NCBI RefSeq assembly: GCF_054482595.1 | Contig: NZ_CM137008.1 | Strand: one strand, 5' to 3' | Length of the DNA stretch: 64,000 nucleotides | Shown: positions 715-23,790 of the stretch, piece after piece | How positions within the stretch are numbered: position 1 is the stretch's first letter | Layout: every line of letters starts with the position of its first letter | The notes under the pieces: generated by a model | What the model saw: only the letters and a program-made list of their open reading frames with translations | The model's database searches: none | What the model was told of the DNA's origin: nothing | Translations under genes and position numbers: made by a program

Positions 715-1065
715 ATGCCCCCACGAACCCCAAAAGCCTGCCGTGTTCGCGGCTGCCGCTTTACAACCACGGACCCTTCAGGCTACTGCGAAAGCCACAA
801 AAGCGAAGGCTGGAAGCAATACAAACCTGGACAATCCCGTCATCAGCGCGGCTACGGTTCGAAGTGGGACAGTATCCGCGCGCGTGTCCTGAAGCGTGAC
901 AAAGGCCTGTGTCAGTTATGTCTGCGTGCTGGTGTGGTGCGTGAGGCGAAGACCGTTGACCACATCATCCCTAAATCGCATGGCGGCACTGATGTCGACA
1001 GTAATCTGCAGAGTTTGTGCTGGCCGTGTCATAAGGCGAAGACGGCCCGTGAACGGCTGAAGTAA
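715..1065 (+). CDS. Phage HNH endonuclease (packaging-associated)
   Basis: 116 aa ORF with Cys pairs and DHIIPKSHGG...N motif (His-Me finger); sits immediately upstream of terminase genes as in HK97-like phages. Confidence 0.85.
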   Translation: MPPRTPKACRVRGCRFTTTDPSGYCESHKSEGWKQYKPGQSRHQRGYGSKWDSIRARVLKRDKGLCQLCLRAGVVREAKTVDHIIPKSHGGTDVDSNLQSLCWPCHKAKTARERLK

Positions 1066-4850: not shown

Positions 4851-5478
4851 TGTACCGCTGAGTCTGAAATCTGTCAGTGACTCCGGTGAGTTTGAAGGGT
4901 ATGGCTCTGTCTTTGGTGTAAAGGACAGCCACGATGATGTGGTGATGTCCGGGGCATTTGCTGCTTCCCTGCGGGCGTGGAGTGACAGAAAAGCGTTACC
5001 TGCACTGCTCTGGCAGCACCGTATGGATGAGCCCATCGGTGTTTACACCGAAATGAAGGAAGACGATGTCGGGCTTTACGTCAGGGGGCGGTTGCTCATT
5101 GATGATGATCCCCTGGCAAAACGCGCACATGCACACATGAAGGCCGGTTCGCTAACCGGCCTTTCTATTGGGTACGTCCTGAAGGACTGGGAATACGACC
5201 GGACGAAAGAAGCCTTTCTGCTGAAAGAAATCGACCTCTGGGAAGTCAGTCTGGTGACGTTTCCGTCTAACGACGAGGCGCGGATCAGCGACGTCAAGAA
5301 CGCGCTGGCCCGCGGGGAAATCCCCGAACAGAAAAAAATCGAAAGAGTCCTGCGTGATGTCGGACTCTCCCGTACCCAGGCCAAAGCATTCATGGCCGGG
5401 GGCTATGGCGCACTGTCCCTGCGCGACGCTGAGGATGTGGGCTCTGCACTGAATGCACTGAAAAATCTGAACTTCTAA
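4828..5478 (+). CDS. Prohead maturation protease (HK97 family)
   Basis: ORF 4792..5478; likely start ATG 4828 (MQTKQRLDVPLSL...) after the portal; position between portal and capsid. Confidence 0.8.
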   Translation: MQTKQRLDVPLSLKSVSDSGEFEGYGSVFGVKDSHDDVVMSGAFAASLRAWSDRKALPALLWQHRMDEPIGVYTEMKEDDVGLYVRGRLLIDDDPLAKRAHAHMKAGSLTGLSIGYVLKDWEYDRTKEAFLLKEIDLWEVSLVTFPSNDEARISDVKNALARGEIPEQKKIERVLRDVGLSRTQAKAFMAGGYGALSLRDAEDVGSALNALKNLNF

Positions 5479-5492
5479 TCAGGAGAAATACG

Positions 5493-6698
5493 ATGGCGGT
5501 TGATATTAAAGATGTCGAACAGGTCGCGCAGGAGCTGCAGCAGAAGTTTGACGACTTCAAAGCAAAGAACGACAAGCGCGTGGATGCGATTGAGCAGGAA
5601 AAAGGCAAGCTTGCCGGGCAGGTGGAAACCCTGAACGGGAAACTCAGCGAGCTGGAAAATCTCAAAAGCGACCTTGAAAAAGAGCTGCTTGAGCTGAAAC
5701 GTCCGGCAGGTGGTGCGCAAAATAAACTGGCCACCGAGCATAAAGAAGCGTTTGTGGGCTTCCTGCGTAAAGGCCGTGAAGACGGTCTGCGCGATCTGGA
5801 GCGTAAGGCATTGCAGGTGGGCACCGATGAAGACGGTGGCTACGCCGTGCCGGAAGCGCTGGATCGCAACATTCTCAACCTGCTGAAAGATGAAGTGGTG
5901 ATGCGTCAGGAAGCCACGGTGATCACCGTTGGCGGTTCCGACTACAAAAAACTGGTGAATCTGGGCGGCACGGCTTCCGGATGGGTGGGGGAAACGGATA
6001 CGCGATCCCAGACTGCCACCTCCAGACTGGAGCTGATTGAACCTCTCATGGGGGAAATCTACGGCAACCCGCAGGCTACCCAGAAAATGCTGGACGATGC
6101 CTTCTTCAACGTGGAAGCATGGATCAACAGCGAGCTGGCAACCGAATTTGCCGAACAGGAAGAAATTGCCTTTACCACCGGCGATGGTACCAAGAAGCCG
6201 AAAGGGTTCCTGGCGTATGAATCCACGGATGAAACCGATAAGGTCCGGGCGTTCGGCAAACTTCAGCATATTGTATCCGGCGACGCGACTGCGGTGACCG
6301 CTGATGCCATTATCAAACTGATTTACACGCTGCGAAAGGCACACCGCACCGGCGCGAAGTTCATGATGAACAACAACAGCCTGTTTGCCATCCGTTTGCT
6401 GAAAGACACCGAGGGTAACTATCTGTGGCGTCCGGGGCTGGAACTGGGGCAGCCGTCCTCTCTGGCGGGTTACGGTATCGCTGAAAACGAACAGATGCCG
6501 GATATCGCCGCTGATGCGAAAGCCATTGCATTTGGTAACTTCAAACGGGGTTACACCATCGTTGACCGTATCGGCACCCGCATTCTGCGTGACCCGTACA
6601 CCAATAAACCGTTTGTCGGTTTTTATACCACCAAGCGCACCGGCGGGATGCTGGTCGATTCGCAGGCCATCAAACTGCTGAAGATTGCAGCGGCGTAA
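5493..6698 (+). CDS. Major capsid protein (HK97 fold)
   Basis: 401 aa ORF with aggag SD, N-terminal coiled-coil-like delta domain (EQVAQELQQKFDDFKAKNDKRV...) typical of HK97-type capsid precursors. Confidence 0.9.
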   Translation: MAVDIKDVEQVAQELQQKFDDFKAKNDKRVDAIEQEKGKLAGQVETLNGKLSELENLKSDLEKELLELKRPAGGAQNKLATEHKEAFVGFLRKGREDGLRDLERKALQVGTDEDGGYAVPEALDRNILNLLKDEVVMRQEATVITVGGSDYKKLVNLGGTASGWVGETDTRSQTATSRLELIEPLMGEIYGNPQATQKMLDDAFFNVEAWINSELATEFAEQEEIAFTTGDGTKKPKGFLAYESTDETDKVRAFGKLQHIVSGDATAVTADAIIKLIYTLRKAHRTGAKFMMNNNSLFAIRLLKDTEGNYLWRPGLELGQPSSLAGYGIAENEQMPDIAADAKAIAFGNFKRGYTIVDRIGTRILRDPYTNKPFVGFYTTKRTGGMLVDSQAIKLLKIAAA

Positions 6699-6701
6699 TC
6701 A

Positions 6702-6732
6702 TTCAGGGGCGCGGAACCGCGCCCCCTGTTCT
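6702..6732 (+). terminator. Hairpin after major capsid gene
   Basis: ggggcgcgg aacc gcgcccc followed by tgttct. Confidence 0.35.
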
Positions 6733-6747
6733 GACGGGTGAAGAATC

Positions 6748-6948
6748 ATGATCCTGAAACAAGATCTGAAATGGTCACCGGACGGTATGCGTGTTGAGGT
6801 CATTCGGGCCGGTGAGTATGACGACGGGGCGCTGCCTGCCCGGGTGCAGGAGATTGCACTTCAGGCCGGGTTAGCAGAGCGCGGAACCAGTGCAAAAAGC
6901 AGTAAAGCGGCAAAAGAGAAAAAAGCCACGACCAGTAAAGAGGGCTGA
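6748..6948 (+). CDS. Small hypothetical head-module protein
   Basis: 66 aa ORF in gene-dense head module, Lys-rich C-terminus. Confidence 0.4.
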   Translation: MILKQDLKWSPDGMRVEVIRAGEYDDGALPARVQEIALQAGLAERGTSAKSSKAAKEKKATTSKEG

Positions 6949-6950
6949 GT

Positions 6951-7274
6951 ATGCTTCTGACAATAGAAGAGATTAAAGCCCAACTCCGGCTGGATGAGGA
7001 TTTCGATACTGATGACCGTCATCTGCAACTGCTGGCCTGTGCGGCGCAAAAGCGGACGGAAACGTATCTGAACCGGAAGCTCTATGCACCGGATGAAACC
7101 ATTCCGGACAGCGATCCGGACGGACTACACCTGCCGGATGATATTCGTCTGGGGATGCTGATGCTTATCAGCCATTTTTACGAAAACCGCTCGTCGGTTA
7201 CGGAAGTGGAGAAACTCGACATGCCGCAGAGTTTTGGCTGGCTTGTCAGCCCGTACAGGTACTTTCCGCAATGA
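6951..7274 (+). CDS. Head-tail connector protein (gp6-like)
   Basis: 107 aa ORF after capsid gene; size, acidic character and position. Confidence 0.65.
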   Translation: MLLTIEEIKAQLRLDEDFDTDDRHLQLLACAAQKRTETYLNRKLYAPDETIPDSDPDGLHLPDDIRLGMLMLISHFYENRSSVTEVEKLDMPQSFGWLVSPYRYFPQ

Positions 7275-19494: not shown

Positions 19495-19904
19495 TGAATG
19501 CGTCATATGCAGTTATTGAAAATGGGATGGTTGTGAATGTCATTGTCTGGGATGGCGAGGCTGAATTCACAGTGCCGGATAATCAGCAGCTCATTGATAT
19601 TTCTGATATCAGTGAGCATCCCGGAATCGGCTGGGGGTATTCAGACGGGGTATTTACTGCGCCGCTCCCTCCGGAACGTTCTCATGATGAACTGGTAGCT
19701 GACGCTGAACAGAAAAAACAGTCGCTGATAGACGCAGCAATGGCCAATATCAGCGTGATTCAGTTAAAGCTGCAGGCCGGGCGCAAACTGACGCAAGAAG
19801 AAACTACCCGACTTAACGTTGTGCTGGATTACATTGACGCGGTGACAGCAACTGATACCAGCACCGCGCCAGATGTCATCTGGCCTGAACTGCCGGAGGC
19901 GTAG
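19494..19904 (+). CDS. Tail fibre assembly protein (Tfa/U-like)
   Basis: Start ATG overlapping fibre stop (taATG); C-terminal ...LDYIDAVTATDTSTAPDVIWPELPEA typical Tfa tail. Confidence 0.75.
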   Translation: MNASYAVIENGMVVNVIVWDGEAEFTVPDNQQLIDISDISEHPGIGWGYSDGVFTAPLPPERSHDELVADAEQKKQSLIDAAMANISVIQLKLQAGRKLTQEETTRLNVVLDYIDAVTATDTSTAPDVIWPELPEA

Positions 19905-20316
19905 GCCATTCAATATCTGGCCCACTGGAAGTATCGACCAGCTCCAGTGCGTCCAGATAATCCAGCCACAAATTATATTGCGCCAGTTCCTCACCTTTCA
20001 GACGACCAATAGCCGCTTTACCAGCCCATTGTTTACTGTTCATATAATCGTTAGCCTGATTAATCAATTGCTGCTTTTCCAGTTCGGCTGCAGCAATCTG
20101 TTCCTCATGTGTTGGTGGTGGAATTTCAGACCATGCAGGAAAACCATTTTCTCCAGCGATACGGATTTTTCCTTTCGGCGGTAATCCGGAAAACTCAATA
20201 TACGCTTGCTCATCAACTTCAACAGCATCATCTGGCCATGAGTCAGCTTGAGTGTAATCCTCTTTCATTTCCAGTGGATAGAAAGAGTTTGTAGTCGCGG
20301 AATATATGTAATTCAT
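19876..20316 (-). CDS. Alternative tail fibre assembly protein (Tfa-prime), inverted orientation
   Basis: 146 aa, convergent with tfa, C-terminus ...WLDYLDALELVDTSSGPDIEWPTPP paralogous to Tfa. Confidence 0.7.
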   Translation of the reverse strand: MNYIYSATTNSFYPLEMKEDYTQADSWPDDAVEVDEQAYIEFSGLPPKGKIRIAGENGFPAWSEIPPPTHEEQIAAAELEKQQLINQANDYMNSKQWAGKAAIGRLKGEELAQYNLWLDYLDALELVDTSSGPDIEWPTPPAVQAR

Positions 20317-20337
20317 TTTTCACTCCATATAGCTAAA

Positions 20338-20730
20338 TTAACAGCCTAACGCTAAAAATGAAGCGCCGAGACCTGGAGTACTGGCTCTGGATATAAATTT
20401 AACCGGGTCGGAACTAAAACCTGCGCAGGCAATATAACCAACAGACCCGCTATCTGGTGTGTAGTCTTGTGAGACCAAAACACGCAGACATCGGTTTGGA
20501 AATGCAATCGGAAAATGGGTTACCACATCCTGTGCAATGCCTGGTGCGCCGATTGAGCCCCACTGAAGAATAAAACCAGATGGTAATTTTTGATATCCAG
20601 TACCTGAAACAGAAAGCGTGAAGCTACCCATATCAGGTATCTGATTCGTCCCTGTCCCCACATTCCTTTTTGCCGCTTCTCCCAAACCAACGTTTATGAA
20701 AATGCAGAAATAACAAGCAAATGGCATCAT
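20338..20730 (-). CDS. Alternative tail fibre variable C-terminal segment (Sv-prime), unexpressed in this orientation
   Basis: Minus-strand ORF upstream of tfa-prime; contains right crossover site and encodes ...FINVGLGE... matching the junction peptide of the expressed fibre. Confidence 0.55.
20678..20700. repeat. Right invertase crossover site (inverted copy)
   Basis: tctcccaaacc AA cgtttatgaa; reverse complement shares ggtttgggaga half-site with left site. Confidence 0.5.
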
Positions 20731-20756: not shown

Positions 20757-20885
20757 ATGCTTATTGGTTATGTACGCGTATCAACAAATGACCAGAATAC
20801 CGATCTACAACGCAATGCGCTGAACTGTGCAGGGTGTGAGCTGATTTTTGAAGACAAGATAAGCGGTACAAAGTCCGAGACCTAG
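20757..20885 (+). pseudogene. pin: Truncated DNA invertase gene (Pin/Gin/Hin family), only about 42 N-terminal codons
   Basis: MLIGYVRVSTNDQNTDLQRNALNCAGCELIFEDKISGTKSET then stop; serine-recombinase N-terminus with catalytic Ser in YVRVSTNDQ; full-length invertases are about 190 aa. Confidence 0.75.
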
Positions 20886-20980
20886 GGCTGACACTGCTGT
20901 TCTTGATGCAAATTAAAGGATTTAATAGTGAGTAGCGGCCTTACTAATGTAAGGCCGCTATAATCATTTTATTAATTGCA

Positions 20981-22870
20981 TTAATCGTGTTTTGGCCATA
21001 CTTTCAATGCAATTTCCCCCAACTTTTTACCCCGCTCCAGGATTTCATCCTCATCCCATTTATCCTTAACTATAAGTGGAATGTTCAGTCGTAGATTGGT
21101 GTGGACGATGAGAGCATCACGTTTTTTCAGAAATACAGCATTCTGAACAGAACGGTTTACGCTAAGGTTAAGCAAAGTTAGATTTCCCAACGTAGCTATC
21201 GCTTGTTGCCGTTTCCTTACCAGTAGCTGTTCAGGGGTAAGATCGGTTCCAGACAGAACAATTTGGTTCAATACCGTAGCATCTGAATTTGTCACCATAT
21301 GACCATTTTCGAGAGGCCAACAGGAAAACCAACTTTGAGGCATAAGATGATCGATATCGAGATTGGAAAGATTTGGACCATCAGGCTTCTCTGTCTTCAC
21401 TTGGCGACAAAGTTCTCTTTCAAGTTCCGTTAACATTGAGCGCATTTTCGGTGCGTCGAGCCTGCCAGGATAAAGTGGAGCATTGATGCAAGCATTGAGA
21501 AATTCTGAGTCACCAGGCCAACGTGAGGCTTCGCCATTTAAGCTATTGAGGATATTACGTAACTCAACACTGGAAATTTCCGTTTTAGACAAGTGCCGCA
21601 ATACATTCATAAATACATTGTTGTAATTCTTTGGCGTCAGGCCACATACGGCTCTTCGTACTACGTAGGAGACAAGATCATTATACATGGCTGCTTTCTC
21701 ATCATCAGCGATGTTAGCTATCGAAATGAACAAAGCAAGCGGATAAAGTGTCGTCACATCATAGTCTGCGATGCGATATCCAAAGTGTGAGATGGGGGTT
21801 GTGCCAAAACCATCAACCAATTCTTTATATTGTGATGCATATTGTTTGAGGCGCTTTACTTGCAGATCTGCTCGTTGTGAAGACAAGTCCTTACTTACAT
21901 AATCACGATACTCATTGTAAAGGCGAGACAGATCAATTTCACGCTGCCTTTCTGATTGCAATGTCGCATGTACTAGCCACTCCATGCGTGGTTTATTAAT
22001 ACGTCCACGGCGTTGCTTTTCCGACCAGTATTTATCTTCAAAGCTCTTCCACTCATTTTCATATAATTCAATAGCATTAATATTTTCATGCTCAGCGCAC
22101 ATAAAGATATAGTTGCGAATAAGATCCGTGGCATGAAGTTCCGCCCCTCGCCCATTTAATGTTTCAAAAATTATTTGGGCATCATCTTCAGCTTCGAGAA
22201 ATATGCTTACCAGTTTCAGATCTGTTAAGACAGCCTCAATTAGAGCTACAGCATTTTCTTGTGGTGAGTGGTTTTCTATTTTAATCCATTTTATAAAGGC
22301 TTCAGTAAAAAAACATAATGCTTCTAGTGATGGCGGGTGATTAAAATGCTTACGCAACGTACCATGCTGCGTGAAACTATCAGAGAATACGTCCCGGAGA
22401 TCGTCAATATTTTCAACATTAAAACTTTGAATAAAATGAGTTTGATCCCGAAAAGTTGGCCATAGTTTGAAGCGTTCTACTTCTTTATTTCGCATTGTGT
22501 CTTCGTTTGAGTTTTTCAGGCAAGGCGAAATGAGAGCCTCTAAGCTGAAAAGATCCGTAGCACGTAATGCTAATCGGATGGATGCCAGAACATATTGAAG
22601 AGTGGTCAATCGTTGCTGACCATCAATAATATGTATGGAATCTACACCTAATAATCCTTTTTTTGATTGAGGTTCCAGTACAACCGCACCAAGGAAATGG
22701 GGAGTTGGTTTTGTACCCGAGAGCCGGGATTGTGCTTTCTCTAGGATATCCTCCAGTAGAGCTGACCATTGGTCTTGCTGAGTCCATACATAGGCACGTT
22801 GATAGAATGGAACACAGTATTGTCGGCGGTCTTGAAAAAGTTGTTGGACAGTTAGCGTCTCGGATTTCAT
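20981..22870 (-). CDS. GmrSD-like type IV restriction endonuclease candidate (DUF262 N-terminal, DUF1524 C-terminal)
   Basis: ORF 20981..22930; motifs FYQRAYVW and IIDGQQRLTTL (DUF262) and NLDIDHLMPQSW (DUF1524 His-Me); probable start MKSETLTVQQ at 22870 with AGG SD; visibly AT-rich. Confidence 0.8.
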   Translation of the reverse strand: MKSETLTVQQLFQDRRQYCVPFYQRAYVWTQQDQWSALLEDILEKAQSRLSGTKPTPHFLGAVVLEPQSKKGLLGVDSIHIIDGQQRLTTLQYVLASIRLALRATDLFSLEALISPCLKNSNEDTMRNKEVERFKLWPTFRDQTHFIQSFNVENIDDLRDVFSDSFTQHGTLRKHFNHPPSLEALCFFTEAFIKWIKIENHSPQENAVALIEAVLTDLKLVSIFLEAEDDAQIIFETLNGRGAELHATDLIRNYIFMCAEHENINAIELYENEWKSFEDKYWSEKQRRGRINKPRMEWLVHATLQSERQREIDLSRLYNEYRDYVSKDLSSQRADLQVKRLKQYASQYKELVDGFGTTPISHFGYRIADYDVTTLYPLALFISIANIADDEKAAMYNDLVSYVVRRAVCGLTPKNYNNVFMNVLRHLSKTEISSVELRNILNSLNGEASRWPGDSEFLNACINAPLYPGRLDAPKMRSMLTELERELCRQVKTEKPDGPNLSNLDIDHLMPQSWFSCWPLENGHMVTNSDATVLNQIVLSGTDLTPEQLLVRKRQQAIATLGNLTLLNLSVNRSVQNAVFLKKRDALIVHTNLRLNIPLIVKDKWDEDEILERGKKLGEIALKVWPKHD

Positions 22871-23140
22871 GGTATACCTGTAAGCGACATTGTACAAAAG
22901 TGAGGAGTTAATCTGATTTAGAACAATCATTTTATTTTGCTATGATACAACGTATTTGTTACCGGTTAAGCAAAAAACGCGTCTGAACGCTGACGTTTTA
23001 GGGCTTTACTGGTTATTCTTTCTTATCTCTTCATCATCCCATCGGCATCCTGTCGAGGTTGTTGACTTGTTGTTATTTATTTTGTCTAGGCGCTGTTTAA
23101 TTATTATTGATAGAACTGATGGTGAGAGGTGATTGAAACC

Positions 23141-23170
23141 GTAGGCACGTCGTTTGCAAGGACGTGCTAC
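23141..23170. other. Stable hairpin in AT-rich spacer
   Basis: gtaggcacgtc gtttgcaag gacgtgctac, about 10 bp stem with one bulge. Confidence 0.3.
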
Positions 23171-23225
23171 GACTGGCTGGTGAATTTCCGATAGTGCGAG
23201 TATTGAATGATTTCCTACGTGCTAA

Positions 23226-23472
23226 CTAGTGAACAAACAACTCTTCAGTAGACTCTCAGGTATCATTCAGAGTTTCCTGAACGAAAGTTTTAGCTCAATC
23301 TTTATCTGCAGTATGTCTAACTGAAAAACTATCGTTGCTGGTGGCTTTTACGATCATCTCCACATCGTCATAACGCTTGCCAATGTGTTGGGTTAATTCT
23401 TCCTTTAACGCGTCCACAGCGCCGTTTGGCATTTGGTCATTTGTCTTTGGCTATGGAGATCTCAATACGCAT
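23226..23472 (-). pseudogene. dinI-family gene remnant disrupted by a frameshift and two in-frame TGA codons
   Basis: Minus strand reads [11 protein letters not shown] then, one nucleotide out of frame, [66 protein letters not shown]; resembles DinI (MRIEVTIAKTSPLPAGAIDALAGEL...SVRY...ILQETWESADDWFV) as recalled; length about 246 nt. Confidence 0.55.
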
Positions 23473-23677
23473 AACACTTCTTTTGTACTGCGTTTGTAGA
23501 CAGTATTATTCTTATCTGTGTAAATAAACAGTATCAAGACTTCGTTTTAGCTGCATAAGAAAAAAGAGATGGATACATTCGGAAAGCTTTTGATGGTGGT
23601 AGGCTAAGTGAATAGCCTAAAGGTGTTTTACCCCAATTATTCCCCGGTATTTCTCCGCATAAAAAACAATCATAAAA

Positions 23678-23710
23678 AAACCAGCCATAATAGGCTGGTT
23701 TTTAAGGGAT
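23678..23710 (-). terminator. proL terminator (hairpin flanked by A and T runs, bidirectional)
   Basis: aaaaaaa ccagcc ataata ggctgg ttttt just 3' of the tRNA on the minus strand. Confidence 0.5.
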
Positions 23711-23713
23711 TTT

Positions 23714-23790
23714 TGGTCGGCACGAGAGGATTTGAACCTCCGACCCCCGACACCCCATGACGGTGCGCTACCAGGCTGCGCTACGTGCCG
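23714..23790 (-). tRNA. proL: tRNA-Pro (anticodon GGG)
   Basis: Reverse complement cggcacgtagcgcagcctggtagcgcaccgtcatggggtgtcgggggtcggaggttcaaatcctctcgtgccgacca; cloverleaf with U33-GGG-G37 anticodon loop, TTCAAAT T-loop and CCA end. Confidence 0.92.

What the first reader, a model, noticed from the sequence alone, without database searches (positions are those of the whole stretch)
20981..22930. Single-gene GmrSD-like (DUF262 + DUF1524) defence candidate in a visibly AT-rich island at the prophage end
One long minus-strand ORF in a stretch that is visibly more AT-rich than the flanking phage and host DNA. Its N-terminal half has the DUF262 signature (YCVPFYQRAYVW, IIDGQQRLTTL) and its C-terminal part the DUF1524 His-Me finger signature (NLDIDHLMPQSW). 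This two-domain architecture is that of GmrSD/BrxU-type type IV restriction enzymes that cut modified phage DNA. It lies between the tail-fibre/invertase block and the att-proximal tRNA. It is a prophage-borne defence cargo gene with no visible partner gene. The first 20 codons of the ORF call are probably not translated (an AGG SD sits before the ATG at 22870).
Basis: partly seen in the sequence, partly recalled or inferred. Interest (0 to 1): 0.75.

Follow-up and report, generated by a model that had tools for sequence, protein, structure and literature searches.

The report
Known GmrSD restriction enzyme, UTI89-type allele

Summary
A minus-strand ORF at 20981-22930 carries the quoted motifs. 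It lies in the most AT-rich 2.8 kb of the window (40.6% GC, against 54% in the phage DNA and 51% in the host DNA), between a tail-fibre/invertase block and tRNA-Pro (proL).

Pfam finds GmrSD_N (7e-34) and GmrSD_C (2e-19). PADLOC's mREase_IV model matches end to end (1418 bits).

The protein is not merely GmrSD-like. It is 98.7% identical (8 substitutions) to UTI89GmrSD, the "UT enzyme". It is 93.3% identical to Eco94GmrSD and CT596 GmrSD, the prototype Type IV enzymes that cut glucosyl-hmC/hmC DNA. The mutationally defined catalytic residues D507, H508 and N522 are at the same positions.

The published context is the same: the end of an SfII-like prophage, just after the tail-fibre genes. About 5.6% of complete E. 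coli genomes carry the gene, under purifying selection.

One small new point: UT-type and CT-type alleles differ almost only in the first 180 codons (dS 0.73 against about 0.06), which looks like an exchanged N-terminal module.

Verdict: already known, low interest.

The parts
20981..22870 (-). [quoted passage not shown]
   Evidence: ORF. Pfam GmrSD_N covers residues 8-256 and GmrSD_C covers 451-619. PADLOC mREase_IV scores 1418 bits over 1-629. 98.7% identical to UTI89GmrSD and 93.3% to Eco94GmrSD. The identical RefSeq CDS is WP_000834400.1.
22871..22930 (-). 20-codon upstream extension of the mechanical ORF call; most likely untranslated 5' leader
   Evidence: RefSeq and all published GmrSD proteins start at MKSETLT. 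AGG lies 6 nt before the ATG at 22870, and there is no such site before the ATG at 22930.
22942..22969 (-). promoter-like site (TTAACC, 16 nt spacer, TATCAT) 72-99 nt upstream of the start codon; weak evidence only
   Evidence: Consensus scan. The number of sites found was no more than chance expects (9 found, 7.8 expected). The site lies inside the segment conserved in all four prophage contexts.
20932..20961 (.). 13-bp G+C-rich hairpin 20 nt after the stop codon, between gmrSD and the invertase stub; probable terminator
   Evidence: The sequence was read.
20757..20885 (+). 42-codon N-terminal stub of a Pin/Gin-type DNA invertase (pseudogene); left junction of the AT-rich gmrSD cassette
   Evidence: PHROG DNA invertase 1e-29, covering profile positions 18-61 of 254 only. 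RefSeq note: 'recombinase family protein, incomplete, missing C-terminus'.
23256..23473 (-). DinI-like gene, frameshifted with an internal stop (pseudogene), upstream of gmrSD
   Evidence: RefSeq annotation of a 99.8%-identical segment. Also present next to gmrSD in strain O18. The sequence was read.
23714..23790 (-). tRNA-Pro(GGG), proL; attachment site at the right end of the prophage
   Evidence: ARAGORN and Rfam. Similarity to K-12 falls off downstream of the tRNA's 3' end. The 3' 58 nt of the tRNA (23714-23771) travel with the cassette in a prophage at another chromosomal site.
18852..20695 (.). context: invertible tail-fibre segment bounded by 18-nt inverted repeats (18852-18869 and 20678-20695), holding alternative tail-fibre ends and two opposed tail-fibre assembly genes
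   Evidence: Inverted repeat I2, 94% complementary. PHROG tail fibre and tail fibre assembly hits.

Best explanation
The gene encodes GmrSD, a single-chain, modification-dependent (Type IV) restriction endonuclease. It is cargo at the end of an SfII/SfV-like prophage integrated at proL in E. coli.

Shown here: the protein is a 629-aa fusion of two domains. The N-terminal domain is DUF262/GmrS, with a ParB/Srx-like fold and the DGQQR motif at 83-87. The C-terminal domain is DUF1524/GmrD, a His-Me finger nuclease with D507, H508 and N522. The protein is nearly identical to the enzymes studied in the laboratory.

Taken from published work on those enzymes: the protein acts alone. It binds DNA carrying glucosyl-5-hydroxymethylcytosine or 5-hydroxymethylcytosine and cuts it in a reaction stimulated by nucleotide triphosphates. 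The lysogen thereby excludes T-even phages. T4 counters it with the injected inhibitor IPI*.

Inferred: the window's allele carries the UT-type N-terminal module. It should therefore behave like the UTI89 enzyme, which is insensitive to IPI*, restricts T2/T6-like phages, and does not restrict T4.
For: - Pfam finds GmrSD_N at 7e-34 and GmrSD_C at 2e-19, in the right order.
- PADLOC's 'Type IV methyl-directed restriction enzyme' model PDLC03655 matches positions 1-629 of 629 with 1418 bits.
- The protein has 8 differences in 629 residues from UTI89GmrSD, and 42 from Eco94GmrSD and from CT596 GmrSD (sequences).
- D507, H508, C517, N522, N528 and N535 carry the same numbering as in Eco94GmrSD. There, D507A, H508A and N522A abolish activity.
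- Eco94GmrSD expressed alone cuts T4 (glc-5hmC) and T4gt (5hmC) DNA with ATP stimulation, and restricts T4 delta-ip1 about a million-fold.
- The published genes lie in the same place, directly after the tail-fibre genes of an SfII-like prophage. The window's late region is 97% identical to SfII over about 17 kb.
- The gene is intact and constrained. Pairwise dN/dS is 0.12-0.25. 299 of the 305 complete genomes that carry the gene match at least 80% of it. The exact protein was seen on at least 1000 contigs.
- No methyltransferase, BREX, Dnd or Ssp genes are nearby.
Against: - No experiment exists on this exact allele.
- The closest characterised protein, UTI89_C2960, was inactive in vitro on T4, T2 and T6 DNA and on modified oligonucleotides under every condition tried (He et al. 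supplement). Its activity rests on strain phenotypes alone.
- Three of the eight differences from UTI89 are private to the window allele: F108, G498 and F515. Two of these flank the D507/H508 site.
- Expression from the prophage is not shown. The only promoter-like site is a weak consensus match, and such matches are no more frequent here than chance.
- Both neighbouring genes are pseudogenes.
Confidence: 0.92

Rival explanations
1. The ORF is intact but the enzyme is not active or not expressed. On this reading it is a decaying cargo gene in a defective prophage, kept by hitch-hiking rather than by defence.
For: - Both neighbours are pseudogenes: the invertase stub and the frameshifted DinI-like gene.
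- The 98.7%-identical UTI89 protein had no detectable activity in vitro, and the UTI89 prophage could not be induced.
- The gene is interrupted by an IS3-family element in at least one strain (H26).
- No isolated phage genome among 50,697 records carries the gene.
Against: - Pairwise dN/dS of 0.12-0.25 shows selection on the protein.
- The gene matches over at least 80% of its length in 299 of 305 carrier genomes, at four different chromosomal sites.
- All motif and catalytic residues are kept.
- According to He et al., the UTI89 strain restricts T2 and T6.
Confidence: 0.06
2. It works as a different DUF262-DUF1524 effector: a BrxU-like partner of BREX, or an SspE/DndI-like sensor of phosphorothioate DNA, rather than an hmC-directed GmrSD.
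For: - PADLOC also gives hits to SspE (1e-15, N-terminal 120 residues only) and to Orf5 and HEC-06 models.
- The only solved structure reached by sequence is 9jfl, deposited as a 'DUF262 domain-containing protein'. That code appears in the DndI paper PMC11662687.
Against: - Those hits are far weaker than the 1418-bit full-length match.
- No brx, ssp or dnd genes lie in the neighbourhood.
- Identity of 93-99% to enzymes with shown hmC/glc-hmC specificity leaves little room for another role.
Confidence: 0.02

Closest known systems
UTI89GmrSD (UTI89_C2960, the 'UT enzyme') of E. coli UTI89
   Same: 629 aa, 98.7% identical, with the same UT-type N-terminal 180 residues. It has the same cassette (DinI-like pseudogene, gmrSD, invertase stub, tail-fibre genes) in an SfII-like prophage. 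The copy in strain O18 encodes a protein 100% identical to the published UTI89 sequence.
   Different: There are eight substitutions. Written as window residue, position, UTI89 residue, they are A46V, F108S, S428A, S443N, G498V, F515Y, H524R and A559S. At five of these sites the window agrees with Eco94GmrSD. Three (F108, G498, F515) are private to the window allele. The prophage sits at proL here and near ssrA in the O18/UTI89-type strain.
Eco94GmrSD (ECSTEC94C_1402) and CT596 GmrSD, the prototype GmrSD enzymes
   Same: Same length, 93.3% identity, and the same D507/H508/N522 site and DGQQR motif. They occupy the same position after the tail-fibre genes of an SfII-like prophage and act as single genes.
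   Different: There are 42 substitutions, and 29 of them fall in the first 186 residues. At DNA level the first 540 nt differ by 11-25 mismatches per 90 nt and the rest by 0-6. According to He et al., the CT type restricts T4 lacking IPI* and is inhibited by IPI*, whereas the UT type is not inhibited by IPI* and does not restrict T4.
BrxU (GmrSD-family enzyme in a BREX defence island; first solved structure of the family)
   Same: Same two-domain family. It cuts modified cytosine DNA in a nucleotide-dependent way. Nucleotide binding turns its dimers into monomers, and it is inhibited by IPI*.
   Different: Too distant to be found by phmmer against PDB sequences at E up to 10. It is plasmid-borne next to BREX rather than prophage cargo.
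McrA of the e14 element in E. coli K-12 (from my own knowledge of the e14 map)
   Same: A Type IV enzyme placed between the pin invertase and the attachment site of a defective prophage. In strain 1190, gmrSD occupies that same place in a prophage at icd, which is the e14 site.
   Different: An unrelated protein with a different target (methylated cytosine). In e14 the invertase is intact.

Membership tests
GmrSD family of Type IV restriction enzymes | N-terminal DUF262 / GmrS domain (PF03235) | tested here: met
   Pfam GmrSD_N, i-E 7.1e-34, residues 8-256, model positions 1-199 of 199.
GmrSD family of Type IV restriction enzymes | C-terminal DUF1524 / GmrD domain (PF07510) | tested here: met
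   Pfam GmrSD_C, i-E 2.1e-19, residues 451-619, model positions 1-137 of 138.
GmrSD family of Type IV restriction enzymes | DGQQR (DGQHR-like) motif and the FxxxN motif of the ParB/Srx-like domain | tested here: met
   DGQQR at 83-87 and FETLNGRG at 235-242. The motifs are defined in Machnicka et al. 2015.
GmrSD family of Type IV restriction enzymes | His-Me finger catalytic residues D-H...N (D507, H508, N522 in Eco94GmrSD) | tested here: met
   D507, H508 and N522 are present at the same numbering. Mutational evidence is in He et al. 2015.
GmrSD family of Type IV restriction enzymes | Close sequence relationship to an experimentally characterised member | tested here: met
   98.7% identical to UTI89GmrSD and 93.3% to Eco94GmrSD and CT596 GmrSD, ungapped over 629 residues.
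GmrSD family of Type IV restriction enzymes | Stand-alone gene with no cognate methyltransferase | tested here: met
   The only neighbours are an invertase stub, a DinI-like pseudogene and a tRNA.
GmrSD family of Type IV restriction enzymes | NTP-stimulated cleavage of glc-5hmC / 5hmC DNA, but not of unmodified DNA | not testable with these tools
   Shown for Eco94GmrSD. Not reproduced in vitro for the UT-type protein.
GmrSD family of Type IV restriction enzymes | Restriction of T-even phages in vivo | not testable with these tools
   Published for CT596, Eco94 and the UTI89 strain. Never tested for this allele.
BrxU-type (BREX-associated GmrSD) | Location in or beside a BREX gene cluster | tested here: not met
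   No brx genes lie in the prophage end or in the host flank.
SspE / DndI-type phosphorothioate-sensing DUF262 effectors | Full-length match to SspE/DndI models, and adjacent ssp or dnd modification genes | tested here: not met
   PADLOC SspE hits cover only residues 8-121. The 9jfl match covers only residues 2-263 at E 9e-8. No ssp or dnd genes are nearby.

The most novel reading that the evidence does not exclude
UT-type and CT-type GmrSD alleles form a mosaic. The first ~180 codons are two old alternative modules (dS 0.73, about 15% amino-acid difference), joined to an almost identical remainder (dS about 0.06).

If this N-terminal module alone sets both sensitivity to the T4 inhibitor IPI* and the choice of sugar-modified phage DNA, then module swapping among prophages would be how E. 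coli escapes phage anti-restriction.

The window's allele is among the commonest alleles (129 of 305 carrier genomes match it at 99% or more). It might then have a substrate not yet tried. That could also explain why the UT enzyme was silent in vitro.
Probability: 0.3. Interest if true: 0.3.

Novelty: already known. Interest (0 to 1): 0.1.

Why it matters
It matters little as a discovery. GmrSD was described in 2007. The single-chain form was purified and mutated in 2015. The family has a solved structure (BrxU), and defence-finding tools already hold a model built on this very protein.

The practical value lies in annotation. RefSeq still calls the gene a 'DUF262 domain-containing protein', although it is 93-99% identical to named enzymes.

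There is a modest point for people working on the T4 IPI*-GmrSD arms race. The two functional types of E. coli GmrSD differ essentially only in the first 180 residues. Chimeras would therefore be a direct test of where inhibitor sensitivity and phage range reside.

Tried and rejected
- NCBIfam has no model for the protein: 0 families at E up to 0.01.
- A nucleotide search of 50,697 phage records found no copy of the gene. A protein search found only homologues of 25% identity or less in unrelated phages. So the gene is known only from prophages, not from isolated phages.
- phmmer against PDB sequences reached only 9jfl (596 aa, E 9e-8, N-terminal domain), even at E up to 10. BrxU was not reached, so no structural statement is made from sequence alone.
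- I did not run structure prediction or the large protein searches. Identity of 93-99% to characterised enzymes already settles membership.
- Rifat et al. 2008, the primary source on the UT enzyme's phage range, is not held. That information is taken second-hand from He et al. 2015.
- Rfam found only the tRNA. A hit to an archaeal snoRNA family (sR41, 23.7 bits against a gathering score of 54) inside the CDS is chance.
- I considered positive selection as the cause of the clustered N-terminal substitutions and rejected it. dN/dS there is 0.12 and dS is ten times higher than in the rest of the gene, which points to recombination between old alleles.
- The promoter and terminator scans gave no more sites than chance expects.

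Full report
**Observation**

The six-frame ORF list shows a 649-aa minus-strand ORF at 20981..22930.

Counted from the second ATG (22870), DGQQR is at residues 83-87, FETLNGRG at 235-242 and DHLMP at 507-511.

The stretch from the end of the invertase stub to the tRNA (20886-23713) has 40.6% GC. The prophage DNA on the left has 54.4% and the host DNA on the right has 50.8%. That is 12 standard deviations below the rest of the window, and it is the lowest-GC stretch of that size anywhere in the 64 kb.

A tRNA-Pro(GGG) lies at 23714-23790 on the minus strand. It is followed by yejM, yejL and yejK, the proL locus of E. coli.

**Start codon**

This is right on three grounds:
- RefSeq annotates the identical gene as a 629-aa protein starting at the ATG that corresponds to 22870 (WP_000834400.1).
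- The three published GmrSD proteins all start MKSETLT.
- AGG lies 6 nt before that ATG, while the upstream ATG is preceded by AAAATAAA.

**What the protein is**

- Pfam finds GmrSD_N (PF03235, 7.1e-34, residues 8-256) and GmrSD_C (PF07510, 2.1e-19, residues 451-619).
- PADLOC's model PDLC03655, 'Type IV methyl-directed restriction enzyme', matches positions 1-629 of 629 with 1418.6 bits. That means the model was built on essentially this protein.
- NCBIfam has no model. This explains the RefSeq name 'DUF262 domain-containing protein'.

A literature search led to He et al. 2015 (PMC4437046). The paper describes Eco94GmrSD as a 629-aa protein, encoded directly downstream of the tail-fibre genes of an SfII-like prophage. 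Its catalytic residues are D507, H508 and N522.

I took the Eco94GmrSD, CT596 GmrSD and UTI89GmrSD sequences from the paper's Supplementary Figure S1. I compared them with the window protein, ungapped over 629 residues:

| Compared with | Identity | Differences |
|---|---|---|
| UTI89GmrSD | 98.7% | 8 |
| Eco94GmrSD | 93.3% | 42 |
| CT596 GmrSD | 93.3% | 42 |

Residues D507, H508, C517, N522, N528 and N535 fall at the published numbering. The window gene is therefore an allele of GmrSD itself, of the UTI89 ('UT') type.

**Surroundings**

The left 20 kb of the window is the late region of an SfII/SfI/SfV-like myovirus, 97% identical to SfII over about 17 kb. The prophage runs off the left end of the window.

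At its right end lies a classical invertible tail-fibre segment:
- It is bounded by 18-nt inverted repeats at 18852-18869 and 20678-20695.
- It holds alternative tail-fibre ends and two opposed tail-fibre assembly genes.

The invertase next to it is cut after about 42 codons (RefSeq note), so the segment can no longer be inverted by its own enzyme.

Then come, in order:
- a G+C-rich 13-bp hairpin (20932-20961);
- gmrSD;
- about 385 bp of non-coding DNA;
- a frameshifted DinI-like pseudogene (23256-23473);
- the tRNA.

No methyltransferase, BREX, Dnd or Ssp gene is present. The gene stands alone, as expected for a Type IV enzyme and as shown experimentally for Eco94GmrSD.

**Distribution**

Of 5426 complete E. 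coli genomes, 305 carry the gene, always on the chromosome. In 299 of them the match covers at least 80% of the gene. The whole 3.3-kb segment including proL is present in 146. The exact protein is recorded on at least 1000 contigs.

The gene, about 100 bp upstream of it, the hairpin and the invertase stub occur together in related prophages at four chromosomal sites:
- proL, in the window and strain MLI107;
- beside ssrA, in strain O18;
- icd, the e14 site, in strain 1190;
- the ydfV region, in strain LAU-OXA.

So one old insertion into the invertase gene has since spread by recombination among these prophages.

No deposited phage genome carries the gene. Only homologues of 25% identity or less occur in unrelated phages.

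**Selection and mosaic structure**

The O18 copy encodes a protein identical to the published UTI89 sequence. The strain 1190 copy is 99.8% identical to Eco94GmrSD and CT596 GmrSD.

Pairwise dN/dS values are 0.12-0.25, so the protein is under purifying selection.

The 42 differences between the window allele and the CT type are not evenly spread:

| Region | Mismatches per 90 nt | dS |
|---|---|---|
| First 540 nt (about 180 codons) | 11-25 | 0.73 |
| Rest of the gene | 0-6 | 0.055-0.069 |

Of the 42 amino-acid differences, 29 fall in the first 186 residues. dN/dS in the divergent part is 0.12. This is an exchange of an old alternative N-terminal module, not positive selection. It is the only point here that I did not find stated in the papers I read.

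**Mechanism**

Shown here: the two domains, the motifs, the catalytic residues, the near-identity to characterised enzymes, and the stand-alone organisation.

Taken from published work:
- Eco94GmrSD cuts T4 DNA (glucosyl-5hmC) and T4gt DNA (5hmC) with ATP stimulation. It loses activity in D507A, H508A and N522A. It restricts T4 delta-ip1 about a million-fold, but wild-type T4 only weakly, because T4 injects the inhibitor IPI*.
- The N-terminal domain has a predicted ParB/Srx-like fold, proposed to bind NTP through DGQQR. The C-terminal domain is an HNH/His-Me nuclease.
- In the distant relative BrxU, nucleotide binding turns dimers into monomers.

Inferred: because the window allele has the UT-type N-terminal module, it should share the UT phenotype reported by He et al. 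That phenotype is insensitivity to IPI*, no restriction of T4, and restriction of T2, T6 and other T-even phages.

**Caveats**

- The purified UTI89 protein showed no activity in vitro under any condition tried.
- The window allele has three private substitutions (F108, G498, F515), two of them close to D507/H508.
- Expression from the prophage has not been shown. The only promoter-like site (22942-22969) is a weak match, in a scan that found no more sites than chance expects.

**Comparison and verdict**

Every sequence-level defining feature of the GmrSD family is met. The enzymatic and phage-plating features cannot be tested with these tools.

The gene is not BREX-associated like BrxU. It shows only partial N-terminal similarity to SspE and to the PDB entry 9jfl.

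The finding is an already known enzyme, in its already published genomic context, and it deserves a low interest score. Its use lies in correcting an uninformative annotation, and in pointing to residues 1-180 as the place to look for IPI* sensitivity and phage range.

Noticed in passing
window 20757-20885 (+) and 18852-20695: The Pin/Gin-type invertase is cut after about 42 codons by the AT-rich gmrSD cassette. The invertible tail-fibre segment (18-nt inverted repeats at 18852-18869 and 20678-20695) is still in place, so the tail-fibre switch is probably frozen in one orientation. The same stub accompanies gmrSD in all four prophage contexts examined.
   Followed up: partly
L002 (strain O18, near ssrA), L003 (strain 1190, icd), L004 (strain LAU-OXA, ydfV region), each at 4884-7197 or wider: The gmrSD plus invertase-stub cassette occurs at the end of related prophages at four chromosomal sites. 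In strain 1190 it lies at the icd site, in the place that mcrA (another Type IV enzyme) occupies in e14 of K-12 (from my own knowledge of e14). This suggests a recurrent slot for Type IV enzymes between the invertase and the attachment site.
   Followed up: partly
window 22331-22870 (-), codons 1-180 of gmrSD: UT-type and CT/Eco94-type alleles differ by about 17% at DNA level here (dS 0.73) but by about 2% in the rest of the gene (dS about 0.06). This is a recombinational mosaic. The LAU-OXA allele has a third pattern, with a divergent middle part (codons 191-450, dS 0.19).
   Followed up: yes
L006 2750-3978 (strain ACN001); corresponds to about window 23049: Most strains with the proL prophage (22 of the 25 listed hits) carry an IS2 about 178 bp upstream of the gmrSD start codon, between gmrSD and the DinI-like pseudogene. 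The window lacks it. The IS2 could change gmrSD expression. One strain (50EVA) has an IS3-family element inside the gene.
   Followed up: partly
window 13010-13456 (-): An AT-rich (about 44% GC) opposite-strand gene sits between the tape-measure and DNA-circulation genes. It encodes a 148-aa protein with an N-terminal hydrophobic segment and matches the PHROG family 'superinfection exclusion Sie-like' (7e-49). It looks like a second defence-type cargo gene in the same prophage.
   Followed up: partly
window 23256-23473 (-): A DinI-like gene with a frameshift and an internal stop lies upstream of gmrSD. The same pseudogene lies upstream of gmrSD in strain O18.
   Followed up: partly
window 23714-23771; L002 from 4099: The 3' 58 nt of tRNA-Pro and the hairpin after it are 98% identical in the O18 prophage, which is not at proL and has no tRNA there (ARAGORN finds none). 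The tRNA's 3' part in the window is therefore probably phage-derived attachment-site DNA. This fits with the hairpin after the tRNA differing from the K-12 sequence.
   Followed up: partly
window 715-1065 (+): A 116-aa ORF with an HNH motif (HIIPKSHGG...N...CWPCH) lies just upstream of the small terminase gene. This is the usual HNH endonuclease partner of terminase in cos-type phages.
   Followed up: no
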